A stretch of DNA of 64,000 nucleotides from Candidatus Spongiisociaceae bacterium (GTDB lineage: Bacteria; Actinomycetota; Acidimicrobiia; Spongiisociales; Spongiisociaceae), in assembly GCA_965219685.1 (NCBI GenBank), contig CBDCOH010000002.1:3520001-3584000 (forward strand). The letters are read 5' to 3'. Shown in pieces: positions 7,536-64,000 of this stretch. The position numbers and the translations under genes were made by a program. The notes beneath the pieces were generated by a model that saw nothing but the letters and a program-made list of their open reading frames with translations, did no database searches and was not told the origin of the DNA. Positions within the stretch are counted from its first letter, which is position 1, and each line of letters starts with the position of its first letter.

Positions 7536-7721
7536 ATGGCAGAGTCCCGACTTCGTATCACCCTGCGGAGGAGCCTGATCGGCGAGAAGCCGAAGGCCAG
7601 GGCGACCGTCCGCAGCCTGGGGCTCCGCAGGATCAACGCCTCGGTGGAACACCGCGACACCCCCGACATCCGGGGGATGGTCCACCGGGTCCGCCACCTG
7701 GTGGAAGTGGAGCAGTTGTAG
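7536..7721 (+). CDS. rpmD: 50S ribosomal protein L30
   Basis: LRITLRRSLIG..ATVRSLGLRR..RGMVHRVRHLV. Confidence 0.95.
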   Translation: MAESRLRITLRRSLIGEKPKARATVRSLGLRRINASVEHRDTPDIRGMVHRVRHLVEVEQL

Positions 7722-7838
7722 TGGTCCGCCCGCGAGGTGATACGCTGCGATGCTGCCGTCGCACGCCGGACCGCCACCCCGCCGCAACGACAGATATCTA
7801 GAGGACATCGACGCGAGACCTATCCGGAGGAGCCGACC

Positions 7839-8297
7839 GTGGCCACCAAGAGGAATCAACTCAAGCTCCATCACCTGCGACCCGCCGAAGGGTCGAAGCG
7901 TAAGAAGATCCGCGTCGGGCGCGGCGAAGCCGGCCGGCGCGGGAAGACCGCCGGTCGCGGCACGAAGGGCCTCAAGGCCCGGCGCAACGTACGTCCCGGC
8001 TTCGAGGGCGGCCAGACGCCCCTGCAGGCTCGCATCCCGAAACTCCGCGGGTTCAAGCCGTACAACCGGGTGGAGTACACGGTGGTGAACGTCGACCACC
8101 TCGCCGCGTTCGGCGACGGCGCCACCGTCTCCCTGGCCGATCTTCGGGAGCGGGGCCTCGTCCGCAAGCGGGGGAAGGTCAAGGTCCTGGGCAGGGGCGA
8201 GATCGATGCGGCACTGACCGTCGAGGCCCACGCGTTCAGCGGGTCGGCCCGAGAGAAGATCGAGAGCGCGGGGGGTTCGTGCGTGATCGTCGGGTGA
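7839..8297 (+). CDS. rplO: 50S ribosomal protein L15
   Basis: RVGRG..GKTAGRGTKG..GFEGGQTPL; GTG start after GGAGG. Confidence 0.96.
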   Translation: MATKRNQLKLHHLRPAEGSKRKKIRVGRGEAGRRGKTAGRGTKGLKARRNVRPGFEGGQTPLQARIPKLRGFKPYNRVEYTVVNVDHLAAFGDGATVSLADLRERGLVRKRGKVKVLGRGEIDAALTVEAHAFSGSAREKIESAGGSCVIVG

Positions 8298-8362
8298 CGA
8301 CCTCACCGGCGCCGCTGGGCCACCGGACAGCGATCCGTGCCAGGCCCGCCCGGACAAGGGGG

Positions 8363-8391
8363 TTGACCCTGTCACACGCCCGCCCCATACT
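8363..8391 (+). promoter_or_regulatory. putative sigma-70 promoter upstream of secY
   Basis: TTGACC-17 bp-CATACT in the 355-bp rplO-secY gap. Confidence 0.55.
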
Positions 8392-8652
8392 TGGGAACTA
8401 CCAAGCACCTGCGCGGTCCCGGGACTGGACGTCGGCCCGACCGCCGGAGGGATCAGGTCTGCGGAGCGGCCATCCCCGGCCAGCCGGGCGAAGCGCGCTC
8501 CGAACCGAGGACAGGTGGTGGTGGGGGTGGGCCCGGAGGGTCGGCCTGTCGGGGCGTTTTTCGCGGACCGGCGGATCCGGCGCCGCGTCCGGGACTCGGG
8601 TGGACTGCAGTCCGGGTGAAGGTCGGGACAACGGTTACGGAGGGCGGCGCTG

Positions 8653-9975: not shown

Positions 9976-9994
9976 ACGGCCACACCGCCGGGCC

Positions 9995-10552
9995 ATGAGG
10001 CTGCTGTTCCTCGGCCCTCCCGGGGTCGGCAAGGGCACGCAGGCGGCGAACGTATCCACCGCTTCGAGCATCGCCCACATCTCCACCGGCGACATGTTCC
10101 GCCGCCACATATCCGACGGCACCCCTCTCGGGAAGCGGGTGAGGCGCATCATGGACCGGGGCGATCTCGTTCCCGACAGCGTGACGGTCGAGATGCTGAT
10201 GGGTCGCCTGGACCGGGCGGATGCGGCGGACGGCTACATCCTCGACGGGTTTCCCCGCACCCTTCCGCAGGCCCGGGCCCTCGACGAGGCGATCGGCGAG
10301 GACGCCCTCGACGCGGTGATCGTGCTGACCGCTCCGCCGGACGTGCTGGTGGAACGGATGCTGGCGCGCGGCCGGGCCGATGACACCGAGGCCTCGGTGC
10401 GGAACCGGCTGGCGGTCTACGAGCGGGAGACGGCGCCGCTCGTAGGCTTCTACCGGGAGCGGGGCATAGTCATGCCTGTCCGGGGCACCGGCGCCATCGA
10501 GGAGATCACGGATCGCATCCTCGAGGTTCTGGCCGGCCTGTCCCCGGCATGA
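9995..10552 (+). CDS. adk: adenylate kinase (short type)
   Basis: GPPGVGKGTQA, HISTGDMFR, LDGFPR. Confidence 0.98.
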   Translation: MRLLFLGPPGVGKGTQAANVSTASSIAHISTGDMFRRHISDGTPLGKRVRRIMDRGDLVPDSVTVEMLMGRLDRADAADGYILDGFPRTLPQARALDEAIGEDALDAVIVLTAPPDVLVERMLARGRADDTEASVRNRLAVYERETAPLVGFYRERGIVMPVRGTGAIEEITDRILEVLAGLSPA

Positions 10553-11322
10553 TCACCATCAAGAACGAGCGGGAGTTCCGCAAGATGGCCGTGGCCGGGG
10601 CGTGCGTGGCGGCGGTTCACGAGGCGGTGGTCGAGGCGGCGGACGTCGGGGTCACCCTCCGGAGGCTGGACGGGATCGCGGCGGACGTTATCCGCTCTCG
10701 GGGTTGCACGCCGTCGTTTCTCAACTACCAGGGATTCCCCGCCCACATCTGCACGTCTCCCAACGAGGTCATCGTCCACGGGATCCCCGGCGACTACCGG
10801 CTGGCGCCCGGCGACATCCTCTCCATCGACGCCGGCGCGGTCTACGAGGGTTACCACGGCGACGCGGCCCTCACCATCGGCATCGGCGACCTCGACGAGG
10901 AGGCGCGCCGGCTCCTCGAGGTCACCCGCCGGGCCCTGTGGGAGGGGATCGACCAGGCCAGGGCCGGGGGCCGGGTCGGTGACATCGGTCACGCCGTGGA
11001 GCAGGCCGCCGCGCCCTACGGCTACGGAGTGGTCCGTGACTACGTGGGTCACGGGATCGGGCGGGCGATGCACGAGAGTCCGCAGATCCCCAACTACGGG
11101 GTGCCCGGGAAGGGCACCCGCCTGAAACGGGGCATGGCGGTCTGCATCGAGCCGATGTTCAATCTGGGTACCCACGAGACCCTCACCAAGGCCGACGGAT
11201 GGACGGTCGTGACCGCCGACGGGAAGCGGTCGGCGCACTTCGAACACACGGTGGCGCTGACCGCCGACGGACCGGTCGTGACCACCGTCAGCGACTTGCT
11301 AACCGCCAGGCCGCTGCGGTAG
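10549..11322 (+). CDS. map: methionine aminopeptidase type I
   Basis: NEVIVHGIP, GHGIG..MHE, IEPM, SAHFEHT. Confidence 0.98.
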   Translation: MITIKNEREFRKMAVAGACVAAVHEAVVEAADVGVTLRRLDGIAADVIRSRGCTPSFLNYQGFPAHICTSPNEVIVHGIPGDYRLAPGDILSIDAGAVYEGYHGDAALTIGIGDLDEEARRLLEVTRRALWEGIDQARAGGRVGDIGHAVEQAAAPYGYGVVRDYVGHGIGRAMHESPQIPNYGVPGKGTRLKRGMAVCIEPMFNLGTHETLTKADGWTVVTADGKRSAHFEHTVALTADGPVVTTVSDLLTARPLR

Positions 11323-11442
11323 CATGACGCGCCGGCCCGTCGGCCGGTTCTTTCTGCGTGCCCGCCTCCCGCCAGCGTCGGGGGGTCATGCAGGAACATC
11401 CTGGTCTCGACGCCAGACGTAAGCGACGCCCTAGGAGCATCG

Positions 11443-11556
11443 GTGAAGGTACGCCCCTCCGCCAAGAGAATGTGCGACAACTGCCAACTCATACGCCGCC
11501 GCCGGCGGGTATGGGTCGTGTGCACCAACCCCCGCCACAAGCAGCGGCAGGGCTGA
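11443..11556 (+). CDS. rpmJ: 50S ribosomal protein L36 (not in the ORF track)
   Basis: Manual translation [37 protein letters not shown]; AGGAG RBS. Confidence 0.97.
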
Positions 11557-11566
11557 GGAGGTAGAC

Positions 11567-11944
11567 GTGGCGCGCATCGCCGGAGTGGACCTCCCGAGGC
11601 AGAAACGGCTCGAGATCGGGCTGACCTACATCTACGGCATCGGCACCACCACGTCGCGCCGGATGTGCAGCGAGCTCCGTATCGATCCCGACGCCCGCGT
11701 GCACCAGCTCACCGATGAAGAGGTGAGCCGGATCCGCACCTACATCCAGTCGAACCTGAGGGTGGAGGGGGACCTGCGCCGGATCGTGGCGCAGAACATA
11801 AAGCGCAAGATGGAGATCGGCTGCTACCAGGGACTCCGCCACCGGCGGGGCCTCCCGGTGCGAGGGCAGCGAACCCATACCAACGCCCGCACCCGCAAGG
11901 GTCGGAGGATGGCGGTCGCGGGCAAGAAGAAGGTCAAGAAGTGA
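11567..11944 (+). CDS. rpsM: 30S ribosomal protein S13
   Basis: [27 protein letters not shown]. Confidence 0.99.
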
Positions 11945-11988
11945 CGGCGCCCCGGCTAAGCCCGGGATCCTGAGGTCCGGAGGAACGG

Positions 11989-12384
11989 TTGGCCAGGAAG
12001 CAACACCAGAAGCGTGTCCGGCGCCGCGAGCGCAAGAACATCTCGTTCGGGCAGGCCCACATCAAGGCCAGCTTCAACAACACAATCATCAACATCACCG
12101 ACGTGAACGGCAACAGCATCGTGTGGACGTCGGGAGGCTCCGTGGGATTCAAGGGTTCCCGGAAGTCGACCCCGTACGCGGCGCAGGTGGCGGCCGAGGA
12201 GGCCTCGCGCCGGGCCGGCGAGCACGGCATCCGCAAGCTCGAGGTGATCGTCAGCGGCAACGGAGCGGGCCGTGACACGGCCATCCGGACCCTGCAGAAC
12301 ATGGGTATCGAGGTGGCGAACATCAAGGATGTGACCCCGATCCCCCACAACGGCTGCCGGCCCAAGAAGCGCAGGAGGGGCTGA
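11989..12384 (+). CDS. rpsK: 30S ribosomal protein S11
   Basis: [29 protein letters not shown]. Confidence 0.99.
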
Positions 12385-41310: not shown

Positions 41311-41394
41311 ACGGCCAGATCGTCGTCATCGGCTTCTGACACCAGCCCGCGAAAACAAACGTAACAAGGCTCGTCGAGGGTGAATCCTGCGCGC

Positions 41395-41590
41395 AGCCAC
41401 GAGCCACAAGCCACCATCCACGAGCCGCCATCCACCAGCCACAAGCCAACCAGCCACGGCATGAACAAGGATGCAGTTCACTGCTACGCGCCCAAACCGG
41501 TTACGGACCATTGATCACCTACCACGGGCTGCGAACCACAAGCCGCCAGCCACAAGCCGCCAGCCACAAGCCGCCAGCCACAAGCCATCT
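41395..41590. repeat. (CCACAAG/CCGCCAG) heptamer tracts
   Basis: Two tracts at about 41395-41457 and 41535-41587. Confidence 0.85.
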
Positions 41591-46604: not shown

Positions 46605-46734
46605 CTCTCCCCCGCTCAGAACGTGAGGCGCAGGTCGTCGCTCCGGTCGTTCCGAGACTCACGTTCGCACGAGACCGCCAGGTCGTGTTGTGGGTGGCCT
46701 AACATGTGTTCACACGAGGAGAGGAGGGACTCCC

Positions 46735-48870
46735 GTGAACTGTCAGGTTTTCATGTCCGTGCCGGCCGCTGGTCTTCGGTCGGCAGTAAGCCTCCCAGGA
46801 ACGGGAAGGGCAGGGTACCGTAAGCGGTGGATGCCGCTGGCTGTCCTGGCGCTTTCGGGTTCTCTACTGGTAGCCTCAGCCGCGCCGGTGCTAGGCGTGG
46901 TAGGTGTTACGGACCATACGGCCCGGCTCTCCGCTTGCGTGGGCGCGGCTCTTGATCCGGCTGGCTTCCACGACACGGAGGGCAGCTTCGCCGAGGAGGC
47001 GGCCGACTGCCTCGCCCACTACGGGATCACCTTGGGGACCAGCCCGGAGATGTTCTCGCCCGGGCAGGTGGTGACTCGCGAGCAGATGGCCCTGTTCCTG
47101 GCGCGGGCGGCGGGTCCGGCCGGGTTCGAGCTACCGGAGGTCTCCGATCAGGGATTCACCGACCTCGACGCCGGGTCCGTCGGCCATGATGCCATCAGCC
47201 AACTGGCCGAGCTCGGAATAGTGGAGGGAACCTCGACCACCGCCTTTGACCCGCAGGGCCCGGTTACCCGCGAGCTGATGGCGTTATGGCTGGCCCGGTT
47301 CCTCAGCGCCGCCCCCACCGGTCCGGGAGGTACGGACATCGATCATGTCGAACCCGATGACGACCACTTCACGGACATCTCCTCGGTCGACTTCAGGACC
47401 CGCGCCGCCATCCGCAAGATCTACGAGATGGGTGTGACCCAAGGGACGTCGGCCTTCACGTTCTCGCCCGCCAAGGAGGTAACACGGGGACAGATGGCCG
47501 TGTTCATCAGCCGCATGCTGGCTCACACCCACGCCCGCCCGGCCGGGTTGACCATCCAGGCAGCCGAGCCGGCACTCTCCGGGGATTCCGATGTCACGGT
47601 GTCGATCTCCTACCGGGACGAGCACCATCGACCCCGGGCGGCCCGGATGGTAGACGTTTTCGCGTCCACGAACCCCGGAATGGCCTTCGACGACGCCGGC
47701 CGATGCACCGGCCACGTCTTCTCGCTGATAGGGCCCGGACAGGCTTGCGTGATGGATAGCTCGGACCACATCACGAGCCCCTCCGGGTACCTGCGGACCG
47801 ATATGGATCTGGCGGATGTCGGCGCGCTGCGGGTCTGGGCCTGGCAAGGTCCCAATGGCACCCTGTACGACGACGACGCCGAAAGGGAGGCGGTCCTCGA
47901 CATCAGGACCCTCAGTTTCCCAATGGCCCTAGAAGTTAGCGACGACATGCGGCCCACCGCCCGCAAGCTCCGCCTGGGCGACACGGTGACGTTCACGTTC
48001 CGGCTGGTCGATGCTGACGGCGCCCCCGTAGCCAAGCCGGGCGTGAAGTTCAGCCTCGGTTTTGAGCAGTCAGTGAACGGGCACAGCCTCGGGCTCCGCA
48101 CCATCGTCAAAGAGACCGCCTCGGACGGCTCGTTCGAGATGGAGTTCCGTCGAGTGGATCAGAACCCCGAGCCCGAGGACCTGGGTGACATAGCGCAGTT
48201 GGACCTTGATGTTCTGGACAGCGGCATGCTGGGGGTGAAAGACAGGACGACCCTCGGGATGCTGGCGAACGACGGCACCAGCGATGACAGTCTGCTCGAC
48301 TGGTCGGACGAGGAGGGAGTGACCACATCCCTCACGCTGTCCCTGCCGGAGGATTACGTCGTAGCCTCCTCGGAGGGCAGCGGTGCGAGCAACAGGGCAC
48401 GGGCGAGCCTCACCGATCAGTACGGATCCGGAGTGGCTCGTGGCGGGGCGATAACCTTCACGTCCACCGACCCCTCGGTGGCGCCTAACAATGTCAACCG
48501 CGCCGCCAATGTGGGAGGGGTGGCCATCCTCGATTACCACCGGGACTCCGACTCCGGCGCCACGGAGTGGATCACTGCCCGGTCCGGCACGCTCACGGCC
48601 GGGGCCCGCCAATACTGGGCCGGCCGCATCCCCGCGGGCACCGGCGGTTCCGGAGAGGTAGTGGTGGTCGACCCCGGCAACAACCGGGCGGTGCTGTTGA
48701 GCGGCGACGATGTCTGGCTCGTGGAGTACAGCTTCGCCGACCGCTTCGAGATCGGCGGCGAACGCGTCCGGATCTCCACCTTCGAGGACACCTTGACGGT
48801 GGGGAACACCCTCGCCTTCGAGATCTCACCATCCGGCGCAGCCAACACCTACACCCTCACCAGCCGCTAA
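46735..48870 (+). CDS. SLH-domain surface protein (paralog 3)
   Basis: VTREQMALFL, AHTHARPAG, FTFRLVD, LTDQYG; start uncertain (GTG 46735 after GGAGG or ATG 46831). Confidence 0.85.
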   Translation: MNCQVFMSVPAAGLRSAVSLPGTGRAGYRKRWMPLAVLALSGSLLVASAAPVLGVVGVTDHTARLSACVGAALDPAGFHDTEGSFAEEAADCLAHYGITLGTSPEMFSPGQVVTREQMALFLARAAGPAGFELPEVSDQGFTDLDAGSVGHDAISQLAELGIVEGTSTTAFDPQGPVTRELMALWLARFLSAAPTGPGGTDIDHVEPDDDHFTDISSVDFRTRAAIRKIYEMGVTQGTSAFTFSPAKEVTRGQMAVFISRMLAHTHARPAGLTIQAAEPALSGDSDVTVSISYRDEHHRPRAARMVDVFASTNPGMAFDDAGRCTGHVFSLIGPGQACVMDSSDHITSPSGYLRTDMDLADVGALRVWAWQGPNGTLYDDDAEREAVLDIRTLSFPMALEVSDDMRPTARKLRLGDTVTFTFRLVDADGAPVAKPGVKFSLGFEQSVNGHSLGLRTIVKETASDGSFEMEFRRVDQNPEPEDLGDIAQLDLDVLDSGMLGVKDRTTLGMLANDGTSDDSLLDWSDEEGVTTSLTLSLPEDYVVASSEGSGASNRARASLTDQYGSGVARGGAITFTSTDPSVAPNNVNRAANVGGVAILDYHRDSDSGATEWITARSGTLTAGARQYWAGRIPAGTGGSGEVVVVDPGNNRAVLLSGDDVWLVEYSFADRFEIGGERVRISTFEDTLTVGNTLAFEISPSGAANTYTLTSR

Positions 48871-48915
48871 TCTCCCCAGGACGCGCGCCAGCCGCCACGC
48901 GCCGGAGGAAGGGGC

Positions 48916-48945
48916 TAGTCAAGGCCGCCGGTTAGTCCTTATAGT
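48916..48945 (+). promoter_or_regulatory. putative promoter, duplicated at 51279-51307
   Basis: TAGTCA-18-TATAGT here; TAGTCA-17-TATATT in the copy. Confidence 0.5.
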
Positions 48946-49247
48946 TCGGACGAGAGCCAGAGAGAAGAACTTGCGTGACCGCGATCACCGAACGGCTGGT
49001 CGATGCCACAGAGCAGGCCCGCGAAGCCGCGTCCCACACCAATCTCGCGCAAGCCACGCACTCCTTCGAGAAACGGGTCAATCCAGGTCGGCTTCCGTAT
49101 CATCGCGATCGTGATACACGCCAAGATCGCCTCGCAGCCCTAGTGTTAGCCTTCCTCAATCGACCAACGCCGCCGCTGGCGGCTTGTAGATTCTGATGCG
49201 ATAGTCTAACGTAGATAGCACTACATCATTGCGATGGAGAGGTAGAA

Positions 49248-50603
49248 GTGACAGCTGAGGTCGCCATCCTCAACCGTGAAGCCGTTGCCATGGCCGCCGA
49301 CAGTGCTCTCACGCTGGGCGGGCCTGTCGGCAAGGTCTACAACAGTGCCAACAAGCTCTTTGCCCTGTCGAGGCTGGAACCAGTGGCTGTCATGGTCTAC
49401 GGAGCGGGTTCGTTCGAGGGAATCCCCTGGGCGACGGTTGTCAAGGAGTATCGCCGTAAGTTGGCTGCAGGCACATTTGCAACGATCGAGGACTACGCGT
49501 CGGATTTCATCGGATACCTCTCATCCCTGGTACATCACATGCCGGCCGACTTCCGGCGACGAAGTGTTCTTCTGAGGGTGTCCTGGGAGCTCGACCAGCT
49601 ACGGGATGCGATTGACGCCAAGGTATCCGGCGATCTTTCCGATGACAACCAGGTGACTGATCACATACTGGATCGGATTGAGTCGAGGATCGGCCAGCTA
49701 GAAGCGGAGGGTGATGAGACCGGGCCCGATGAGTCGGCGGCTGTTCAAGAGTTCAACGAGGCCATTGACGACTGGGACGGTTTGATTATGACGTTCCTGA
49801 AGGATTTGCCAGCGACGGATACTGTCAAGGAGAGGGCCCGGGCCATGGTGTGTACCTCGCTGCGGGTCGCCACTTGGTCGCCGGCATCGTCCGGTGTCGT
49901 TGTCGCCGGCTTCGGGACTTCACAGCTGTTTCCGGCCCTTTCCCACCACTTGGTAGATGGCATCCTCGTGGACCGGGTCCGAGTTCGTCAGATTCAGGGG
50001 GTCCAGATTGGTTGGCAGCAGTCTGCTGTGATCTGTCCGTTCGCGCAGCAGGACATGGTGCAAACATTCATGGACGGTCTACATCCGGACTTTCCACACG
50101 CGCTTGGCGGGTTCATTGATGAAACGATGCGGCTGTACGCGAGTCACTTCGGCGAGCAGGTTCAGAATGCTCTTCCCTCCGACGAGTACGGGGGACTGAT
50201 GGAAAGGATGGCCACGGCGAGATCCGAGACTGTCAAATGGTTCCAGGAGCAGATGAGGGATCTGCTGGAGCAGCAACATTCAGGTCCGATCATGTCGATC
50301 GTTAGTATGTTGCCCAAGGAGGAACTGGCGGAGATGGCCGAAGCGCTCGTCAACCTCACGTCTCTTAAGAGGCGGGTCACTCCGGAGGACGAGACCGTAG
50401 GCGGTCCGGTCGATGTTGCGGTGATCTCGAAAGGTGATGGACTTATCTGGATCAAGCGCAAGCACTACTTCGCCCCAGAGCTGAACCACCGGTTTTTCGA
50501 CCGTGACCAAGATCTGTCAACAGGTAAGACAGGTAGCCTTTCTTGCCGAAGGGCTCCGGACGATCGGACTGAAGATCGGGACGGGACAGGAGGCAGGTTA
50601 TGA
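49248..50603 (+). CDS. Ntn-hydrolase/proteasome-beta-like protein with large helical insertions
   Basis: M-T-AEVAILNREAVAMAADSA.T N-terminus (Thr nucleophile), KLF, VVVAGFG, TVGGPVDVAVISK; lower GC. Confidence 0.7.
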   Translation: MTAEVAILNREAVAMAADSALTLGGPVGKVYNSANKLFALSRLEPVAVMVYGAGSFEGIPWATVVKEYRRKLAAGTFATIEDYASDFIGYLSSLVHHMPADFRRRSVLLRVSWELDQLRDAIDAKVSGDLSDDNQVTDHILDRIESRIGQLEAEGDETGPDESAAVQEFNEAIDDWDGLIMTFLKDLPATDTVKERARAMVCTSLRVATWSPASSGVVVAGFGTSQLFPALSHHLVDGILVDRVRVRQIQGVQIGWQQSAVICPFAQQDMVQTFMDGLHPDFPHALGGFIDETMRLYASHFGEQVQNALPSDEYGGLMERMATARSETVKWFQEQMRDLLEQQHSGPIMSIVSMLPKEELAEMAEALVNLTSLKRRVTPEDETVGGPVDVAVISKGDGLIWIKRKHYFAPELNHRFFDRDQDLSTGKTGSLSCRRAPDDRTEDRDGTGGRL

Positions 50604-50782
50604 ATAGAAACATGGAAGAGGAGCTTCATCGAGTGATGGTCGAGAAGAACCGTCCTCCGCACCGCACGGTGTTCAATCCGGGTGATGACCCGGAGGAATT
50701 CGGGCGTCGTGCTGCCCGAGATCTGTTCGATCGGTACATCAGGCACGCGACCAGCACCCCCGCGCAGTCTAAGAAGGGCTGA
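50600..50782 (+). CDS. small hypothetical protein coupled to the Ntn-hydrolase gene
   Basis: ATGA overlap, GGAGG RBS. Confidence 0.5.
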   Translation: MNRNMEEELHRVMVEKNRPPHRTVFNPGDDPEEFGRRAARDLFDRYIRHATSTPAQSKKG

Positions 50783-50822
50783 ACGCACCCACCAAACCTG
50801 GTACTTCGCTGCAAGGCAGGAG

Positions 50823-51236
50823 TCACGTCCACCGACCCATCCGCAATGTCGAACAACATCAACCGTTCCGCCAGTGTGGGCGGCGTGGCCAGCTTCGACT
50901 ACCGGCGAGACTCCGACTCCGGCGCCACCGAGACGATCACCGCCCGGCACGGCACCCTCACGGCCACGGCCCGCCAGTACTGGGCTGCCCGGATCCCCGC
51001 CGGCGCCAGCGGTTCGGGAGAGGTGGTGGTGGTCGACCCCGGTAACAACCGGGCGGTGGTTGTGACCGGCGATGACGTCTGGCTCGTGGAGTAACAGCTC
51101 CGCCGATCGCTTCGAGATCGACGGCGAACGCGTCCGCATCTCCATCTTCGAGGATGCCATGACCGTAGGGGATACGCTCAGCTACGAGATCTCACCCTCC
51201 GGCACAGCCAACACCTACACCCTCACCAGCCGCTGA
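50823..51236 (+). pseudogene. orphan alternative 3' end of SLH paralog 3
   Basis: Colinear with 48458-48870 (STDPS...NTYTLTSR); +1 A frameshift at about 51093. Confidence 0.92.
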
Positions 51237-54529: not shown

Positions 54530-56623
54530 TCAGGCCGCGTTGACGCTGATGGTGTGGTAGCCGGTTGCTCCGTCGGGTCGGGGCGGTTGGACCCTGGCGG
54601 TCTGGGTGGAACCGGTGCCGTCGGCTGCTCTGACCGCGATCGTGTGGGGACCGGGGGTGAAGTCGTGTTCCAGGTACCACTGGCGCCAGGTATCTATGGA
54701 CAGTTCCTGGGGAAGGGTCGCGTTCGTCCATGGGCCGTCATCGACCTGGACCTGTACCCTGATGATTCCCCGGTTCTGGGCCCACGCGACTCCGGCGATG
54801 ACGTTGGGGCCGGCTTTGATCTTTCCCTCCCTGGGGGTGTCGATCCGTGACTGGGTCTTGATGGGCGCCTCCTTGGCCCATCCTCTCGGGATCCAGTAGG
54901 CGTCGAAGTCGTTCCATCCGGTGAACTCCACCTCGGTCAGCCACTTGGTGGCCGACACGTATCCGTACAGGCCGGAGACGACCAGGCGGGCCGGGAACCC
55001 GTGTCGGAGCGGGAGCGGCTCACCGTTCATTCCTACCGCCACCAGGGCCTCGCGCCCGTCGAACACCGCGCTGGTGGGGAAGCCCACCGTGAACCTGTCG
55101 ACCGACCGGCCAACCAACTGGGTGCCTCCCCGCCGGACACCGGCCCGCTCGACGAGCTTCCAGAGTGGAACGCCCAGCCACTTGGCGTTGCCGACCAGAT
55201 TCCCGCCCACCTGGTTCGACACGCAGGCGAGCGTGATGTAGCGCTCCACCAGCGGCATGGCGATCAACTCGTCGTAGGTGATGCTGAAGGGGGTGTCCAC
55301 CTGGCCGGTGAAGGAGAGGGTCCAGGTCCGGAGGTCGACAGTGGGAGTGCCGATGGCGGTGTCGACCACGTAGAACTCGTGGTTGGGCGTGATCAGGTCC
55401 GAGACGCCGTCGACGGGTGCGATCTGGGCACGGGTCGGAGCCGCCACGCCGGAAACGGCCGGCTCGGTTGTGGTGGTCGTCTGGACTGGCTGGGTGGTTG
55501 TGGTGGTCGTCTGGACTGGCTGGGTGGTCGTGGTGGTCGTCTCGACTGGCTGGGTGGTTGTGGTGGTCGTCTGGGCCGGCTGGGTGGTTGTGGTGGTGGT
55601 CTGGACTGGCTGGGTGGTTGTGGTCTCGACCGGCTGTGCTGTGGTGGTGGCCCCCTGCGTCGTCTCGGTGGTTGCGGGCTGGGTGGTTGTGGTTTCGACC
55701 GGCTGTGCTGTGGTGGTGGCCCCCTGCGTCGTTTCGGTGGTTGCGGGCTGTGTGGTGGTGGCGTCGGACGGCTGGGTCGTTCCGGCGGTCTCGGCGGCGG
55801 CAGGGACGGTCTCGTTCGTGGCGGGTGCCTCCGGCGCCTGGGTGATCTCGGCGGCGGCGGCGGTGGAGGGCGCCTCGGCCGCCTGAACGGTGTCGGCGGA
55901 GGCCGATGTGGGTTCGGTGGCAGCCATCGTGTCGGCGGCGGCCGTCCCCGTCGTGGTCGCGGTGTCGTCCGCCGACGGAAATGCGGTGGGGAGTGTCACC
56001 TGCTCCCGTCCGATGACGGCCGACCGTACCCGGCTTCCGAGGTAGCGGCCGAGGAGAGTCTCGCCCACCGATACGGCCACCGTCGCGGCCGACGCGGTGA
56101 GGAAGACGCGCCGTGATCCGGCGGCGACGCCTCCCTCGGGAGAAACGGAACGCTGCAACAGGAAGCGGAGTCCCAACAGCACCCCTACGCCCATGGCCGT
56201 AGCAGCCGCCGCGGCGACCAAGGGAAGAAGGGCTCCGGCCAGCGGGTCGGTCCGCCCTGCCGCATAGCCGACCATGCCGAACACTACGAAGCCGGCCGCG
56301 GCCAGACCCGGACGGTCCCTGGCCAGGATGCCGAGAAAAGCGCCGATCACGAGGGAAACAACGACGATCCCGATCACCAGCACCAACTTGTCATTGGTGC
56401 CGAAGGTGGCGATGGCCCAATCCACGACAGGTACCGGGCTGTTGTCGATGACCCGTTGACCGATAGTGCGTATCAGAGACGGCGCGGACAGGAAGAGACC
56501 CGCCACCAGCTCGGAAACGGCGAGAGCGGCGCCCGCGGCGACCACACCCAGCAGAGCGAAGTCGAGCCGGGACCGCAAGGAGATGCGACGCCTGGGTTCC
56601 GGAGCCTGGTCTTCATGCTTCAT
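54530..56623 (-). CDS. membrane-anchored molybdopterin oxidoreductase (sulfite-oxidase family) with Thr-rich linker
   Basis: N-terminal TMs, SRRVFL; TLACVSN.VGG.LVGNA.W.G; GEPLPLRHGFPARL..GLYGYVSATKWL; GVAWA, WRQW. Confidence 0.9.
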   Translation of the reverse strand: MKHEDQAPEPRRRISLRSRLDFALLGVVAAGAALAVSELVAGLFLSAPSLIRTIGQRVIDNSPVPVVDWAIATFGTNDKLVLVIGIVVVSLVIGAFLGILARDRPGLAAAGFVVFGMVGYAAGRTDPLAGALLPLVAAAAATAMGVGVLLGLRFLLQRSVSPEGGVAAGSRRVFLTASAATVAVSVGETLLGRYLGSRVRSAVIGREQVTLPTAFPSADDTATTTGTAAADTMAATEPTSASADTVQAAEAPSTAAAAEITQAPEAPATNETVPAAAETAGTTQPSDATTTQPATTETTQGATTTAQPVETTTTQPATTETTQGATTTAQPVETTTTQPVQTTTTTTQPAQTTTTTTQPVETTTTTTQPVQTTTTTTQPVQTTTTTEPAVSGVAAPTRAQIAPVDGVSDLITPNHEFYVVDTAIGTPTVDLRTWTLSFTGQVDTPFSITYDELIAMPLVERYITLACVSNQVGGNLVGNAKWLGVPLWKLVERAGVRRGGTQLVGRSVDRFTVGFPTSAVFDGREALVAVGMNGEPLPLRHGFPARLVVSGLYGYVSATKWLTEVEFTGWNDFDAYWIPRGWAKEAPIKTQSRIDTPREGKIKAGPNVIAGVAWAQNRGIIRVQVQVDDGPWTNATLPQELSIDTWRQWYLEHDFTPGPHTIAVRAADGTGSTQTARVQPPRPDGATGYHTISVNAA
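55465..55765 (-). repeat. 30-bp (x5) and 69-bp (x2) Thr-rich in-frame repeats
   Basis: QPVQTTTTTT and QPATTETTQGATTTAQPVETTTT units. Confidence 0.9.
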
Positions 56624-57133
56624 CCATCCAAGAGTAGAGGGATCTGGTGGATTGTGGATGGTGGAATTAGTGGCTTGTGGCGAGCCCCGAGTCTTCATCG
56701 ATCGGGGTTTGTAGGGGTTGACGGAGCGGGAGTTCTGGAATCCTGACCTGGCATTACGGCTACCGATAGCCTTGTCCTGGAGACGGTGCGAGTTCACCCG
56801 CCGCGTGAAGGCGGCCTCTACGGAGTCCATAGGGTTCAACTGGCCTGATGTACATCGGTGTGCCGGGGACATGAAGATGCTTCTATGACGCTCCCATATT
56901 GTGGAAGTCGGTTGTCGGTATCTATCCACTATTGAGATCGGGTGGAGAGATGATGTTTGTGGCCCGGCGCGCTCGAGTGCTGGGATAAGGCTGTGTTGTG
57001 TCCGGAGGCTCCGGCGGCCCGCATGGTGGTGACGCCTGCACCACCCACGATGCACCGCCAGAGGCCCCGGATCCCGATCCGATCCCAGGTCGCCCCACCA
57101 GCCACAAACCACAAGTCACAAGCCACCGTTACT

Positions 57134-59236: not shown

Positions 59237-59564
59237 GTTCCTCGGCAAAGGGGTGGACAGTGGTCGGTGGTCGGCTCCCCAGGTACGAGCACGGTCGGCG
59301 CCGGGTCGTGACCCGCAGGGCGTACCCCACGCGCTCAGCGGCCATCGTCGGAGGCGCCGCCCGATCGGATAACGGAGAGGGCCGGCTCTCGCAGCCCGAG
59401 TGAAGGAACTCACCCGAACCGGTGTTCCGGCTGATCCGGATAGATCGGGTTAGGACGACCTTTCCACTAGCCTTCACCGGTGGGACCGCCATGATCCGAG
59501 GGACCGGACATCCCGGCGGGGATTGGCTCGAAGAAACCGCAAGAGGCCGGCACATGACAGGCAC

Positions 59565-61661
59565 ATGACAGTTTTCTCGAATCGTACGGGTGCGATCCTG
59601 GCGACGACCATGGTCGCTTCCCTGCTCGTGCTGGCACCCGGACCGCTGAAGGCGGTCGACGGCAGGTCCGACAACGTGGCGGCCTACTCCGCCTGCGTGG
59701 GTCCTGCAACTGTATCGGCGGATTTCGCCGATACAGTTGATCACTTCGCCGAGAAGGCCATCGACTGCCTCGCGTACTACGGGATAACGCTGGGCACCGC
59801 CGCGGGCCAGTTCTCCCCCGACCAGTTCATCACCCGCGCGCAGATGGCCCTATTCCTCGTCCGGGCGGCCGGTCCGGCGGGGGTGAGCCTGCCCACGCCG
59901 GCGAGCCGGGGGTTCTTGGACATCTTGGGCGAGGCGCAATTCGTCCGGGATGCGATCAACCAGATCGCGGCGCTCGGAATCACGGCGGGCACGTCAGCCA
60001 CCACATTCCACCCTGACGTCCACATGGACCGCCGGACGATGGCCCTCTTCCTCTACCGGTTCCTCCTGCTGACCCAGCAGGGACCGGGCGGGACCGGCGC
60101 GGCCCTGGTGACGCCCGACGACACATTGTTCGAAGATTTGGGCAACGAGGACGATGCGGTTGTCAACGCAGTCGGCGTGCTCTACGAGATGGGCGTGACC
60201 CACGGCAAGACGGCTACGACCTTCGCTCCTTCCGACCTGGTGACTCGGGCGCAGATGGCGCTGTTCATGACCCGGGCCCTGGCGCACTCCAACACCCGGC
60301 CGGCCCGCGTGACCATCCAGAGCCGGGCCGACGTCGTTCCCAGCGGGGACACACTCGAGGTGAGTATCTCCGTCAGGGACACCAGGTTCCGCCCGAGGTC
60401 AGGGTCGCTGGTCGACGTGTTCTCCACCCCTTCCCGAGACCCGTACGCCTCGTTCGGTCAGGACGGGGACTGCCTCCGAAGGGTGGAGGTGGCCTTCGGA
60501 AGCCGAGTCTGCGTGATCGATCAATCGGACCGGCGCCTGGACCAGATGGGCAACCTGGTAGTCGTCCTCGAACCCACCGACAACCTGCTGCTATGGGCAT
60601 GGACGGGTTCTTCGGGCGAGGAGTTCCGCACCAACGCCACCGAGTACGGTTCCATCCGGATCGAGGTGCTCAAGCCTGCCACGGCGGTGAGGGTCCGTGA
60701 CGACATGAAACCTGCGGCCGCCATCCTGAAGTTGGGCGAAACCGTGGAGATGACGTTCGAACTGGTCGACGAAGACGGTCGCCCGGTCGCCGAGTCCGGG
60801 GTACGGATCCAGCTGGCCACGACCTACGAGACGAACGGCGTGATCGGCCGGACCAACATCAGGACGCACCGGACCGACGGGGATGGGCGGGTGGTGGTTC
60901 CGCTCTCGGCGGCGGACCCCGACCTCACATCCGGTGGCGACTCGGTGAAGGTCGACATCGATGTGCTGGTGCAGGCGCTCGAGGTGGTGGATCGGAGCAG
61001 CCTGCGGGTGGTGGAGAACGATGACGACGACAGCACCGACACCCTGATCACCTGGTCCGAGGCGGCCCCGGTGGCCTGGACCCTCCGGTTGCGCCAAGCC
61101 TCCACGTACAACCAGCTGGACGATTCCATCCTCGGTCCGGTGAACGTGGTCCGGGCGACGCTCAGGGACCAGTACGGCGATCCGGTGGAGGCCGCCATGA
61201 TCCAGTTCTCCTCGGATCAGCCCTTGGGCCTTGGTACGACCGGTGTGACCAGGACCGCAGGGGTCGACGGGGTGGCCACCCTGCGGTATATGTGGAACGG
61301 TTCCGGGTCGGCGTCCGAACTCATCTCCGCCGAGGCCACAGGCTTGGACGTCGAGGCTGTGTCCGTTCACCACTACTGGGCGGTTCTCCAGGCGGGAGGC
61401 AGGTCCGCCCTGGCGGTCCCCATCCTGGCGAGCGACATCTACAGGAACGTCATCCTCCACGACGCCAGGTCGCCGCGGCTGCTCCGTTACGACGCCAACG
61501 ACCGTTTCTCGATCCGGGACACCGTCGTCAGCATGACCGCCTTCGAGGAGGCCCTTACCAGCGGCGACTACAGCCGGATCACCTACACCAAGTACTTCGA
61601 CGAGCCCGAAGATGTCAGCTTCTTCGACCTCACCAACACCAGGATTTTCGACGACGCCTAG
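59565..61661 (+). CDS. SLH-domain surface protein (paralog 6)
   Basis: AYSACVG, ITRAQMALFL, AHSNTRPAR, LRDQYGDPV, HYW. Confidence 0.87.
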   Translation: MTVFSNRTGAILATTMVASLLVLAPGPLKAVDGRSDNVAAYSACVGPATVSADFADTVDHFAEKAIDCLAYYGITLGTAAGQFSPDQFITRAQMALFLVRAAGPAGVSLPTPASRGFLDILGEAQFVRDAINQIAALGITAGTSATTFHPDVHMDRRTMALFLYRFLLLTQQGPGGTGAALVTPDDTLFEDLGNEDDAVVNAVGVLYEMGVTHGKTATTFAPSDLVTRAQMALFMTRALAHSNTRPARVTIQSRADVVPSGDTLEVSISVRDTRFRPRSGSLVDVFSTPSRDPYASFGQDGDCLRRVEVAFGSRVCVIDQSDRRLDQMGNLVVVLEPTDNLLLWAWTGSSGEEFRTNATEYGSIRIEVLKPATAVRVRDDMKPAAAILKLGETVEMTFELVDEDGRPVAESGVRIQLATTYETNGVIGRTNIRTHRTDGDGRVVVPLSAADPDLTSGGDSVKVDIDVLVQALEVVDRSSLRVVENDDDDSTDTLITWSEAAPVAWTLRLRQASTYNQLDDSILGPVNVVRATLRDQYGDPVEAAMIQFSSDQPLGLGTTGVTRTAGVDGVATLRYMWNGSGSASELISAEATGLDVEAVSVHHYWAVLQAGGRSALAVPILASDIYRNVILHDARSPRLLRYDANDRFSIRDTVVSMTAFEEALTSGDYSRITYTKYFDEPEDVSFFDLTNTRIFDDA

Positions 61662-62019
61662 CCCCAGCGGCAACGGCGGCATCGACTCGAGCGAGGCGAG
61701 CCGTCGGCGGACCGGTGGCCGGTGCCCGGCCGTTCGCCTGCCCCTGACCCCCCGAAATCGCACCGAACCGCCGGGTTTGCCGTATGAAAATGATTATCAA
61801 GGAATGTCTTGTCCGATTTGCCACCGTTCGGCGCTCTGGTCTGGTATTTTTGCGCCACCCGTAGTTCGCGCTCTTGTCTGCCGGAAAGCCCCTGAGGCCG
61901 TCCGGATCGGGCAGGAAGCCGGTTGGCGGACTGCACAGAAGATCCGGTTAAGGGGTCGGTTTGAGAAGTTCGGTACAGGCTGGTCCGCTGTCCCAGCGGC
62001 TTAGATTCACATTTCAGTT

Positions 62020-62880
62020 GTGAAAGGAGTTGACCAACTGCTCTCAGACACAATGAAGAAGCGCTACGAGCGGGAGTGGGCCCGGTGGGAGACCTGGGCT
62101 TCGTCGCACGGGTATTCGTCGCTTCCCGCCGAGACGGCCCACATCGCCGAGTACGCGATGGGCCTGCTGGCGTTGGGGGCTGCGCCCTCGGGTGTGGGGA
62201 TGGTGCTGTCCTCCATCCGGTGGCGCCACCATATCGCGAACGCCGACCCTCCTCCCGACAATGAGCTAATACCGGCAACCTCGAGCGCTCCCTCCGAAGG
62301 GGAGCCCATCACCCGGGCCGACGCCGCCGCCCTGATCGAGGTCACCAGCCTGCGAAGGTCCTACCGCGTGGGGAGGGGCGTCAGGCGGGAGCGGCAGTCG
62401 CGCACCAACAAGCGCGCCGTCATCGACTCGGTCATCATCGGGCTGGTGTGGGAGACGCTGGCCACGGCCAGCGAGATCGCCGGCCTGGAGTGGGCCGACG
62501 TGGATCTGGCCGGACGCAGGGTGCGGTACGCGGAGCGGGACGGCTGGTCCCCGGTCTCGGAGGGGCTCGCCCACCGGCTCACGCTGCTGGCCGAGTTCCA
62601 GAACGCCACCACGAGTGTGGTGGGACTCTCGCCCGCCTCCGTCAGGCGCCGGGTACGCGAGGCTGCCGAGTACGGAGACCTCGGCTCCGGCTGGTCGCTG
62701 CGCCGGCTCCGGACCGGAGCGGTCCAGGCCATCGCCGAGCGCGGGGCGTCGATGGCGGATGTCACCCGAGCCGGCCTGTCGCTGCCCGGCACGGCCGGAC
62801 AGGCCGAGAGCGAGGCCATCGGAGTTGGTGAAGGCCTCGCCGCCCACCTGCAGGACTCGCCGGTACCGAAACCCGACTGA
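62020..62880 (+). CDS. Cre-like tyrosine recombinase homolog, catalytically degenerate
   Basis: T.K.Y...W..W..W....G..SLPA N-terminal SAM-like domain; box I reads LATASEIAGL (Arg lost); box II reads SLRRLRTG (His lost); no GRW..Y motif. Confidence 0.7.
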   Translation: MKGVDQLLSDTMKKRYEREWARWETWASSHGYSSLPAETAHIAEYAMGLLALGAAPSGVGMVLSSIRWRHHIANADPPPDNELIPATSSAPSEGEPITRADAAALIEVTSLRRSYRVGRGVRRERQSRTNKRAVIDSVIIGLVWETLATASEIAGLEWADVDLAGRRVRYAERDGWSPVSEGLAHRLTLLAEFQNATTSVVGLSPASVRRRVREAAEYGDLGSGWSLRRLRTGAVQAIAERGASMADVTRAGLSLPGTAGQAESEAIGVGEGLAAHLQDSPVPKPD

Positions 62881-62889
62881 TCGGTCACC

Positions 62890-63223
62890 GACCGGGCGGA
62901 TCCCGTTCGGTGCGGGGACTCCCGGAGATTCGGAGCAGGCGATCGGGTCTGCACGATCGACACGTCCGACCTGCGTCTCGACGGGTCCTTTACGGCGACA
63001 CCATGCGCAACGTCATCCTGCACGACGAAGTGGCCCCGTTGCTGCTGCGCTAGGACGCCAACGACCGCTTCTCGATCCGGGACGCCGTCGTGACCATGGA
63101 CGTCTTCGAGGAGGCACTGGCGTCCGGGAGCTACGGGCGGGTCAGCTACAGCCGGTACTCCTCGGACCCGCCGAGGTCAGTAACTTCGACCTCACCAACA
63201 CCAGGATCTTCGACACCGCCTAG
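62890..63223 (+). pseudogene. orphan, internally deleted alternative 3' part of SLH paralog 6
   Basis: RVCTIDTSDLRLD matches about 60505-60545; RNVILHD..LLR*DANDRFSIRD...FDLTNTRIFDTA* matches 61440-61661. Confidence 0.88.
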
Positions 63224-63226
63224 ATG

Positions 63227-63332
63227 GGTTAGGTCTTAGGTAGTGAGCGGTGGTTAGCGTTAGATCGGATAAGTTGCTGGTCTCGGTGTGTGCTGTCCGA
63301 GCTTCCACCCCCGCTAAGCGGGACCTTCACGA
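63227..63332 (+). repeat. dispersed structured repeat, copy B
   Basis: GGTAGTGAGCGGTGGTTAGCGTTAGATCGG...GTCCGAGCT...CGCTAAG..CCTTCACGA, immediately after TAG 63223. Confidence 0.85.
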
Positions 63333-63603
63333 AAGAGAAGTATGGGAGACCCGTGGCGAGAGACACTGATGCAAACGAGTGGCGGCTGCGTTGTGCATCG
63401 ATAGTTCAGTGCGATCCTCCAGATCGGATGGCTTGGAACTCCTGATCAAACCGGCCGCATTCGCTTTCGAACAGCCGATCATGGATCGCCGGATCCGGAT
63501 CTCCGGCCCGCCCGCACCGCCGGTGGTCACCCCCGCCTGACAAGGAGAACCGCCAGATCCGGTTCGTAGACAATGCAGTCGTGATGCGGCATGCTGCATG
63601 ACG

Positions 63604-64000
63604 CTACCGCCCGAAGAACTTGTCGAACAGTTCAATCTGGCCGTCTCGAAGGCTGGCAACTTCCGTCTTGACGCCGGCGACGTCGTTTTGGAGACCGCCG
63701 ATGTCCTCTCGAATGCTGGCGACCTCGGTTTTGACGCCGGCGACGTCGTTTTGGAGACCGCCGATGTCCTCTCGAATGCTGGCGACCTCGGTTTTGACGC
63801 CGGCGACGTCGTTTTGGAGACCGCCGATGTCCTCTCGAATGCTGGCGACCTCGGTTTTGACGCCGGCGACGTCGTTTTGGAGACCGCCGATGTCCTCTCG
63901 AATGCTGGCGACCTCGGTTTTGACGCCGGCGACGTCGTTTTGGAGACCGCCGATGTCCTCTCGAATGCTGGCGACCTCGGTTTTGACGCCGGCGACGTCG
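63604..64000 (-). CDS. 3' part of a coiled-coil repeat protein (start lies outside the window)
   Basis: Open frame of KTEVASIREDIGGLQNDVAGV repeats ending ...LRDGQIELFDKFFGR*. Confidence 0.7.
   Translation of the reverse strand, partial: DVAGVKTEVASIREDIGGLQNDVAGVKTEVASIREDIGGLQNDVAGVKTEVASIREDIGGLQNDVAGVKTEVASIREDIGGLQNDVAGVKTEVASIREDIGGLQNDVAGVKTEVASLRDGQIELFDKFFGR
63670..64000. repeat. perfect 63-bp tandem repeat, at least 5 copies
   Basis: Units start at 63670, 63733, 63796, 63859, 63922, 63985. Confidence 0.97.

What the first reader, a model, noticed from the sequence alone, without database searches (positions are those of the whole stretch)
61662..63223. Catalytically dead tyrosine recombinase between S-layer paralog 6 and its displaced alternative tail
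Seen: a second instance of gene / cargo / orphan 3' end. The cargo is an uninterrupted 286-aa Cre-like ORF lacking the catalytic Arg, His and Tyr motifs, preceded by an AT-richer region. The orphan tail has a stop, a frameshift and a ~0.9-kb internal deletion. Inference: relic of the integrase that drove tip replacement, or a recombinase domesticated as a DNA-binding regulator of the S-layer locus.
Basis: partly seen in the sequence, partly recalled or inferred. Interest (0 to 1): 0.7.

Follow-up and report, generated by a model that had tools for sequence, protein, structure and literature searches.

The report
Dead Cre-like recombinase in S-layer locus
A gene sitting among the cell-surface (S-layer) genes of a sponge-associated bacterium encodes a protein shaped like a DNA-cutting recombinase that has lost its cutting residues yet is kept intact by selection, so it has probably been re-used as a DNA-binding protein.

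Summary
62020-62880(+) is a real 286-aa gene (GC3 0.86). Its model has the two-domain tyrosine-recombinase fold (XerA Z 16.2, Cre Z 13.6). It lacks Arg-I (Thr149 in 22 of 22 family members), the Lys hairpin, His-II (Arg228 in 20 of 22), the Trp and the Tyr nucleophile. Only Arg-II remains.

It is not a relic. 21 homologues at 52-93% identity share the same losses. pN/pS is 0.34 against the nearest species (binomial p 2.6e-5). Two metagenome strains carry an in-frame 9-nt deletion in the disordered linker.

In species-representative genomes it occurs only in the three closest species of one genus of sponge-associated Acidimicrobiia, always inside the SLH-gene array.

However, it is a decayed S-layer paralogue older than the split from the nearest species. 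A full-length gene holds that position in a third species. The same gene/cargo/orphan pattern occurs with other cargos.

"Integrase that drove tip replacement" is therefore not supported. "Domesticated DNA-binding protein" is the best reading, by analogy with MrpR/YopR/SroF and TnsF. Binding and target remain untested.

The parts
59523..61661 (+). S-layer paralogue 6 (712 aa; SLH domains plus Ig-like domains), immediately upstream
   Evidence: Pfam SLH E 3.7e-23, with Big_1 and Invasin_D3 below their cut-offs. Against the G007 neighbour gene, the N-terminal half is 75-88% identical and the C-terminal half only 53-61%. pS is 0.435, against 0.141 for the recombinase-like gene.
61662..61748 (.). 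Variable spacer after the S6 stop codon
   Evidence: Homology to G007 stops here: G007 has 418 nt in place of 87. The 8375-nt contig of run X5 has 81 other letters in place of 61708-61748 (table 5).
61749..62019 (+). Conserved upstream region of the recombinase-like gene; AT-richer; presumed promoter and leader
   Evidence: It lies within the block 61749-62897, which is 91% identical to G007; alignment A3. GC is 0.587 at 61800-62099. The simple scans found no sigma-70 consensus site and no terminator, and Rfam found no family.
62020..62880 (+). 286-aa catalytically inactive Cre-like tyrosine-recombinase-fold protein. By the DSSP helices of the model, the N-terminal helical domain is about aa 1-108 and the C-terminal domain about aa 110-250. 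The disordered linker is aa 252-267. The conserved C-terminal helix is aa 271-278.
   Evidence: ORF. GC3 0.86. 21 homologues. AF2 pLDDT 85.8 and pTM 0.84. Foldseek and VIA top matches are XerA and Cre. Catalytic columns. pN/pS 0.34.
62938..62986 (+). Pseudogene fragment A: remnant of the middle of an S6-like paralogue
   Evidence: 79.6% over 49 nt to nt 1135-1183 of the G001 763-aa gene (E 3e-7). 80% over 35 nt to nt 1021-1055 of the G007 723-aa gene. The peptide resemblance can be seen.
62986..63223 (+). Pseudogene fragment B: the last ~79 codons of an S6-like paralogue, with TAG at 63051-63053 and a 1-nt deletion after 63170
   Evidence: 83% to the G007 gene 3' end, 78% to S6 and 70% to the G001 gene. 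Stop and frameshift located. A 93-nt piece of it (63067-63159) is also present downstream of the gene in G007 at 89%.

Best explanation
The ORF encodes a member of a small, previously unnamed family derived from Cre-like tyrosine recombinases. The family keeps the two-domain DNA-clamping fold but lost the active site before it diversified. It cannot make the phosphotyrosine intermediate.

The gene is maintained by purifying selection. It is inherited vertically as a resident of the SLH (S-layer) gene array in one subclade of a genus of sponge-associated Acidimicrobiia.

The most likely function (inferred, not shown) is sequence-specific DNA binding as a regulatory or architectural protein. This is how the recombinase-fold repressors MrpR/YopR and SroF work. 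The nearby S-layer genes or its own conserved upstream region are the obvious candidate targets.

The downstream fragment is a decaying S-layer paralogue, not a tail displaced by this protein.
For: Fold:
- AF2 model pLDDT 85.8.
- Foldseek probability 1.00 to XerA and Cre.
- VIA: XerA Z 16.2 (161 aligned, rmsd 3.4); Cre Z 13.6 (215 aligned, model residues 1-251).

Descent from active enzymes:
- 360 distant relatives at E<=0.001.
- 10 of 10 scanned relatives pass the PF00589 cut-off.
- Of 114 aligned relatives, 105 have Arg-I, 72 His-II and 99 Arg-II. 65 have all three plus a Tyr in the expected stretch.

Loss of the active site:
- Thr149 in 22 of 22 members.
- Arg228 in place of His-II in 20 of 22.
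- Arg-II kept in 21 of 22.
- No Tyr after Arg-II in 19 of 22.

Selection:
- G000 v G007: Sd 33, Nd 30, pN/pS 0.34, binomial p 2.6e-5.
- N-terminal domain 0.32, C-terminal domain 0.30, tail 0.80.
- Against G001: 0.50 uncorrected; NG86 omega 0.32-0.35.
- pS of 0.141 is no higher than that of a housekeeping control (0.224), which fits vertical descent.
- Runs X7 and X8 show an in-frame 9-nt deletion at about 62786-62797, inside the low-confidence linker. The indels listed for X5 and X6 lie upstream of the start codon.

Context:
- Inside the SLH array in G000, G007 and G001, i.e. 3 of 3 species with the gene.
- An 8375-nt contig of run X5 carries S5-S6-gene in the same order at about 97% identity.

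Precedent: passages read in PMC10516654 (MrpR) and PMC10293859 (TnsF). SroF, YopR and MrpR are structural neighbours at Z 12.7, 10.7 and 10.6.
Against: - No DNA-binding evidence of any kind.
- The calculated pI is 6.6 (29 R, 5 K, 35 D+E), not the basic value typical of Cre-type proteins (that comparison is recalled).
- No motif is shared by the regions upstream of the S-layer genes and this gene beyond shuffled controls.
- pN/pS of 0.3-0.5 is looser than for the housekeeping control (0.16).
- The family was found in only 3 of 8 genus genomes, so it is dispensable.
- Context is known for only three species plus one strain. The contigs of the other 20 or so database homologues could not be inspected.
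Confidence: 0.55

Rival explanations
1. It is the repressor or immunity-type remnant of a degraded mobile element. A recombinase-fold repressor like MrpR/SroF was left behind after the rest of an island decayed, and is kept because it silences or excludes related elements rather than acting on S-layer genes.
For: Recombinase-fold phage repressors are structural neighbours: SroF Z 12.7, YopR 10.7, MrpR 10.6. Compared with G002, G000 carries about 3.2 kb extra between S6 and the next SLH gene. That extra DNA holds this gene, the pseudogene and a coiled-coil ORF. The G000-G007 block with clean borders is 61749-62897. The contigs of runs X5 and X7 stop matching after 62884. In G001 a Schlafen/AlbA_2-type gene lies one gene further downstream.
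Against: No phage or transposon genes were seen among the neighbours scanned. None of the 55 candidate stretches in viral contigs encodes a relative. There is no paralogue in the genome. Synteny within the array is stable across species whose housekeeping gene differs by 9-18%.
Confidence: 0.15
2. It is a non-catalytic DNA-targeting or synapsis partner. It marks sites in the S-layer array so that homologous recombination, or an active recombinase encoded elsewhere, can exchange the variable C-terminal halves of paralogues and pseudogene cassettes.
For: S6 and its G007 counterpart are mosaic: N-terminal half 75-88% identical, C-terminal half 53-61%. Their pS is 0.435, against 0.141 for the adjacent gene. 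Orphan gene fragments recur in arrays of this genus. TnsF shows that an inactivated recombinase domain can serve as a target selector (PMC10293859, passages). The genome has 4 canonical PF00589 genes elsewhere.
Against: Orphan fragments and mosaicism also occur where this gene is absent: the first instance in this window, and G004 and G005. Only one decayed cassette lies next to it. No repeated candidate site was found.
Confidence: 0.1
3. It is a neutrally decaying relic of the integrase that once inserted the cargo and displaced the tail.
For: The gene sits between a complete gene and a 3' fragment of a similar gene. Catalytic residues are missing.
Against: The frame is intact in every copy whose DNA was read, namely G000, G007 and G001 with its two near-identical metagenome copies. 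pN/pS is significantly below 1. 51 invariant columns are seen across 22 sequences down to 52% identity. An in-frame indel occurs in strains. The orphan fragment predates the G000-G007 split, and its position holds a full gene in G001.
Confidence: 0.04
4. It is still an enzyme with a rebuilt active site, using other invariant residues (for example Tyr170, Tyr115, His70, His276 and Arg228/Arg231) to cut or join DNA.
For: Several Tyr, His and Arg residues are invariant. In one alignment Tyr170 falls on the Lys column of active relatives. Two basal members have a Tyr near the position of the nucleophile.
Against: In the larger alignment, the Tyr170 column is a gap in 111 of 114 distant relatives, so the correspondence is not robust. 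The segment that should carry the nucleophile is variable in length and has pLDDT below 50. No precedent is known to me (recalled).
Confidence: 0.04

Closest known systems
Cre recombinase of phage P1 and uncharacterised Cre-like tyrosine recombinases
   Same: Same two-domain architecture, collinear over residues 1-251 (Z 13.6, 215 aligned). Cre is the best solved-structure sequence match for the family profile. The nearest active relatives carry the Cre-type GRW motif (Trp in place of His-III) in 9 of 11 aligned.
   Different: Arg-I is Thr, the Lys hairpin is shortened, His-II is Arg, and the Trp and Tyr are absent. The Pfam PF00589 score is 14.1 bits, against a cut-off of 27.1. The protein is chromosomal, single-copy, inside an S-layer array, and no lox-like inverted repeat was identified.
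MrpR/YopR (SPbeta) and SroF (phi3T): recombinase-fold phage repressors
   Same: Tyrosine-recombinase fold with lost recombinase function. MrpR binds repeated DNA elements and represses (PMC10516654, abstract and passages read). All are structural neighbours of this model: Z 12.7 for 9rgl, 10.7 for 8bj6 and 10.6 for 8a0a, each over the C-terminal domain only.
   Different: No sequence relationship was detected: they are not among the 19 sequences listed at E<=10. MrpR keeps the Lys and Tyr (paper, Table 3 passage), whereas this family lost both. The context here is not a prophage. The loss of activity is therefore independent.
TnsF of Tn6022-like Tn7 transposons
   Same: [quoted passage not shown]
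   Different: TnsF has N-terminal zinc fingers and works with Tn7 transposition proteins at comM. Pfam found no such domain here, and the neighbours are SLH genes.
Crypton-derived DUF3504 genes of eukaryotes
   Same: Domesticated tyrosine-recombinase domains (PMC3212892 and PMC13465315, seen only in the search listing and abstract starts).
   Different: Eukaryotic and unrelated in context. Not compared by any search here.

Membership tests
Tyrosine recombinase superfamily (DNA breaking-rejoining fold) | N-terminal helical core-binding domain plus C-terminal catalytic-domain fold | tested here: met
   AF2 pLDDT 85.8. Foldseek probability 1.00 to XerA, Cre, lambda Int and XerD. VIA Z 16.2 to 11 for these.
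Tyrosine recombinase superfamily (DNA breaking-rejoining fold) | Catalytic residues Arg-I, Lys-beta, His-II, Arg-II, His/Trp-III and the Tyr nucleophile | tested here: not met
   Thr149 in 22 of 22. No conserved Lys. Arg228 in 20 of 22. Arg231 kept in 21 of 22. No conserved Trp or His. No Tyr after Arg-II in 19 of 22.
Pfam PF00589 Phage_integrase | Score at or above the gathering cut-off (27.1 bits) | tested here: not met
   14.1 bits, E 0.041, covering residues 129-170 only. NCBIfam and PHROGs matches were weaker.
Recombinase-fold DNA-binding repressors (MrpR/YopR/SroF type) | Recombinase fold with lost recombinase chemistry | tested here: met
   Fold and residue losses as above. Z 10.6-12.7 to 8a0a, 8bj6 and 9rgl.
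Recombinase-fold DNA-binding repressors (MrpR/YopR/SroF type) | Sequence homology to MrpR/SroF beyond the superfamily level | tested here: inconclusive
   Not among the 19 sequences listed at E<=10 in the profile search of solved structures. No direct profile comparison was run.
Recombinase-fold DNA-binding repressors (MrpR/YopR/SroF type) | Specific DNA binding and repression | not testable with these tools
   Needs EMSA, DAP-seq or a reporter assay.
TnsF-type target selectors | Zinc-finger N-terminus and Tn7-type transposition genes alongside | tested here: not met
   No further Pfam domain in the protein. The neighbours scanned are SLH, coiled-coil and oxidoreductase genes.
Pseudogene / decaying relic | Frame disruptions or neutral substitution pattern | tested here: not met
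   Open frame in G000, G007 and G001. pN/pS 0.34, p 2.6e-5. In-frame 9-nt indel in X7 and X8.

The most novel reading that the evidence does not exclude
The dead recombinase is a locus-specific DNA-recognition or synapsis factor. It brings S-layer paralogues and silent 3' cassettes together so that the exposed C-terminal halves of S-layer proteins are swapped by homologous recombination. That would be a recombinase-derived guide for surface variation in uncultured sponge symbionts. The mosaic S6 gene and the recurring orphan fragments would then be its footprints.
Probability: 0.07. Interest if true: 0.8.

Novelty: new variant of a known kind. Interest (0 to 1): 0.45.

Why it matters
Catalytically dead tyrosine-recombinase-fold proteins re-used as DNA binders are known from only a few cases: SPbeta and phi3T phage repressors, TnsF, and eukaryotic Crypton-derived genes. 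This family appears to be an independent bacterial example. It has no Pfam coverage, is chromosomal, is under selection, and is tied to a fast-evolving S-layer gene array in sponge-associated Acidimicrobiia.

If its target lies in that array, it would link a domesticated mobile-element protein to control or diversification of the cell surface of a symbiont. Practically, it shows that annotation as "integrase" (the name one source gives a homologue) is misleading for this family.

Tried and rejected
- Homodimer prediction: no verdict (score 0.00, below the mark), so nothing can be said about oligomerisation.
- RNA evidence: no RNA holder is listed among the 14 runs, so expression is untested.
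- Rfam: 0 matches at E<=0.1 in 61400-63700.
- Promoter and terminator scans: 0 sites each.
- Repeats in 61500-63700: only the S6/orphan direct repeats stand out. The 18 inverted pairs are short and imperfect. One pair brackets the ORF (61969-61986 / 62853-62870, 83%), but its right arm lies in coding sequence for the conserved C-terminal motif. I did not treat it as a site.
- Shared 12-mers (<=2 mismatches) among 8 upstream regions of S-layer genes, cargo 1 and this gene: at most 4 of 8 regions share one, while 20 shuffles reach 3-5. No motif.
- Paralogues in the genome: none; the next hit has E 0.035.
- Viral contigs: 0 of 55 candidate stretches.
- Metagenome scan: 2 of 99 stretches. Both are at least 99.9% identical to the G001 locus over 20.8 kb, so they add no independent context.
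- Active integrases beside SLH genes: in G002-G006, none lies inside the arrays. The nearest is in G002, 15.8 kb beyond the last paralogue.
- Earlier findings of this scan: nothing on record.
- Literature: searches found no paper linking an inactive tyrosine recombinase to SLH or S-layer loci. The search for "Spongiisocius" found nothing.
- Lys column: the assignment of Tyr170 to the Lys column is alignment-dependent (v 78), so I dropped it as evidence.
- Technical failures: one search timed out and was replaced; one search was a script error.

Full report
OBSERVATION

The ORF 62020-62880(+) is open for 286 codons. Its GC by codon position is 0.69/0.56/0.86. That is the pattern of the neighbouring S-layer genes and not of the overlapping antisense frames. 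GC dips to 0.587 just upstream.

The gene upstream (59523-61661) has SLH and Ig-like domains. It is the sixth full-length SLH paralogue of an array that starts at 41860.

Downstream lie two pieces of an S6-like gene.
- 62938-62986 matches the middle of relatives.
- 62986-63223 matches their last 239 nt.
- There is a TAG at 63051-63053 and a 1-nt deletion after 63170.
- The gap between the two pieces equals about 0.88 kb of an intact relative.

WHAT THE PROTEIN IS

The standard libraries barely see it. Pfam PF00589 gives 14.1 bits against a cut-off of 27.1, and NCBIfam and PHROGs are weaker.

The large protein collection holds 21 clusters at 52-93% identity with no precomputed Pfam domain (alignment A1, with 51 invariant columns).

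A profile of these finds Cre as the best solved-structure sequence. The match is weak (E 0.012) but collinear over both domains.

The AlphaFold model built on A1 is confident (pLDDT 85.8, pTM 0.84). The exception is residues 252-267.
- Foldseek gives probability 1.00 to XerA, Cre, Brujita Int, lambda Int and XerD.
- VIA gives XerA Z 16.2 (161 aligned, rmsd 3.4) and Cre Z 13.6 (215 aligned, model 1-251).
- The protein-language-model atlas also puts it next to integrase clusters.

An exhaustive HMMER search finds 360 more distant relatives at about 25-35% identity. Ten of ten scanned pass the PF00589 cut-off.

THE ACTIVE SITE

In alignment A2, the 11 distant relatives carry the canonical motifs:
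- LLRxSE (Arg-I) in 10 of 11.
- SKTD (Lys) in 10 of 11.
- GHSxRVG (His-II) in 9 of 11, with Arg-II in 11 of 11.
- GRW in 9 of 11.
- The Tyr in 9 of 11.

In a larger alignment of 114 relatives, Arg-I is present in 105, His-II in 72 (14 gaps) and Arg-II in 99. Sixty-five have all three plus a Tyr in the expected stretch.

The family instead has the following:
- Thr149 in 22 of 22.
- A shortened hairpin without a conserved Lys.
- Arg228 in 20 of 22.
- Arg231 (Arg-II) in 21 of 22.
- No conserved Trp or His.
- No Tyr at all after Arg-II in 19 of 22.

The three exceptions have a Tyr in the variable linker. In two basal members it lies near the nucleophile's expected position, but their closest kin lack it. 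So the active site was lost before the family diversified.

SELECTION

Against the nearest species (G007) there are 33 synonymous and 30 non-synonymous differences. pN/pS is 0.34, and a binomial test against neutrality gives p 2.6e-5.
- Both domains are constrained (0.32 and 0.30).
- The last 36 residues are not (0.80, not significant).
- NG86 omega is 0.32, and 0.35 and 0.34 against G001. YN00 gives 0.20.
- A CoA-transferase control has pS 0.224 and pN/pS 0.16.

The gene's pS of 0.141 is therefore what vertical descent predicts.

In public metagenome contigs, runs X7 and X8 show a 9-nt in-frame deletion at about 62786-62797, within the disordered linker. The single-base indels listed for X5 and X6 lie upstream of the start codon.

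DISTRIBUTION AND CONTEXT

No paralogue exists in the genome. Four canonical PF00589 genes lie elsewhere.

Counts across collections:
- 61 related genomes: the family is in 3, all in one genus (3 of 8 genus members including G000; 0 of 53 outside).
- The whole family-level set: 3 of 29.
- The scan of all species-representative genomes: 2 of 344 candidate stretches.
- Viral contigs: none of the 55 candidate stretches encodes a relative.

By CoA-transferase identity, the three carriers are the three nearest genomes. G007 is at 91% and G001 at 82%; the others are at 76-81%. That fits one gain.

Record titles of the nearest named hits for that gene read Acidimicrobiia and Candidatus Spongiisociaceae MAGs. 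The DNA holders are mostly sponge, coral and marine metagenomes.

Gene order in each carrier:
- G007: a 723-aa SLH gene, this gene, then a short remnant at the contig end.
- G001: SLH 715 aa, SLH 691 aa, this gene, a full-length 763-aa S6-like gene, then a Schlafen/AlbA_2-type gene.
- The 8375-nt contig of run X5: S5, S6 and this gene, at about 97% identity.

All five genus genomes without the gene still have the array and an S6-like gene at 53-61% identity. In G005 and G006 the S5-like and S6-like genes are about 320 nt apart. In G002 the S6-like gene is followed directly by the SLH gene that lies 3.2 kb further on in G000.

THE ORPHAN FRAGMENT

It is not a tail that this protein displaced.
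- A 93-nt piece of it (63067-63159) lies downstream of the gene in G007 at 89% identity. The fragment therefore predates the species split.
- In G001 a complete paralogue occupies that position.
- Fragment A shows that the remnant once reached at least to the middle of a gene.
- The same layout occurs with a 451-aa ORF of no known family in this window.
- It also occurs with 1.4 kb of other DNA in G004.
- G005 has an orphan 5' fragment.

Something does replace S-layer sequence here. S6 and the G007 gene are 75-88% identical in the SLH half but only 53-61% in the distal half. Their pS is 0.435, about three times that of the adjacent gene. No result ties that process to the recombinase-like protein.

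The conserved G000-G007 block with clean borders is 61749-62897. In run X5, 81 other letters replace 61708-61748, and the X5 and X7 contigs stop matching after 62884. This could mean a discrete module. It could also simply reflect decay of the non-functional flanks.

MECHANISM

Shown: the fold, the loss of catalytic residues, purifying selection, and residence in the array.

Inferred: that the protein still clamps DNA and acts as a regulator or architectural factor. This inference is carried by precedent. According to the passages I read in PMC10516654, MrpR of SPbeta has the recombinase fold, lacks key residues, shows no recombination activity, and represses by binding repeated elements. According to passages in PMC10293859, TnsF is an inactivated recombinase derivative used as a target selector. 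SroF, YopR and MrpR are structural neighbours of the model (Z 12.7, 10.7 and 10.6). Active enzymes score higher, and no sequence link to the repressors was seen, so the inactivation looks independent.

Against a simple DNA-binder picture stand three points: a near-neutral pI of 6.6, the lack of any detectable repeated site, and the gene's absence from 5 of 8 genus members.

LIMITS

- Context is known for three species and one strain only. The contigs of the other homologues could not be fetched.
- Supplementary files of the cited papers were not opened.
- The run search listed no RNA run holding this stretch, and the homodimer prediction gave no verdict.
- pN/pS rests on pairwise counts, with saturation likely for the G001 comparisons.

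VERDICT

The protein is a genuinely dead but conserved recombinase-fold protein. It is an independent variant of a known kind of domestication, with an unusual home in an S-layer gene array. The "integrase that drove tip replacement" reading is not supported.

Noticed in passing
window 46690-51094: First instance of the same layout: SLH paralogue 3 (46690-48870), a 451-aa ORF with no Pfam match (49248-50603), then an S3-like 3' fragment (50846-51094) whose peptide closely follows the S3 C-terminal region.
   Followed up: partly
window 59523-61661 v L001 397-2568: S6 and the neighbour gene of the nearest species are mosaic. The SLH half is 75-88% identical and the distal half 53-61%. pS is 0.435, against 0.141 for the adjacent gene. 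This suggests replacement or very fast evolution of the exposed half.
   Followed up: partly
L022 (G004) 7576-11506; L021 (G005) 11511-12209: Other genus members also carry orphan S-layer gene fragments without any recombinase-like gene. G004 has a duplicate 3' end 1.4 kb after its S6-like gene. G005 has a duplicate 5' end several kb after its array, amid short ORFs I did not scan.
   Followed up: partly
window about 41394-41587: A short sequence upstream of the first SLH paralogue matches dozens of places in G007 at 79-91%, several at contig ends. It is probably a dispersed repeat or miniature mobile element.
   Followed up: no
window 63604-64245 (-), seen in L009: A 213-aa ORF made largely of tandem 21-residue repeats that gives only generic coiled-coil Pfam matches. 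It lies between the pseudogene and the next SLH gene and has no counterpart at that spot in G002.
   Followed up: partly
window 54530-57112 (-): An 860-aa ORF with a molybdopterin-oxidoreductase domain interrupts the S-layer array. It carries a long Thr/Pro/Gln-rich tandem repeat (TTTQP-like) in its middle. In G001 its homologue lies on another contig.
   Followed up: no
window 33913-37869 (-): A 1318-aa protein with 14 RCC1-repeat matches, a eukaryote-like repeat family, lies close to the S-layer array.
   Followed up: no
L002 13433-15184: In G001 the gene after the S6-like paralogue has Schlafen AlbA_2, HATPase_c_4 and DUF5635 domains.
   Followed up: no
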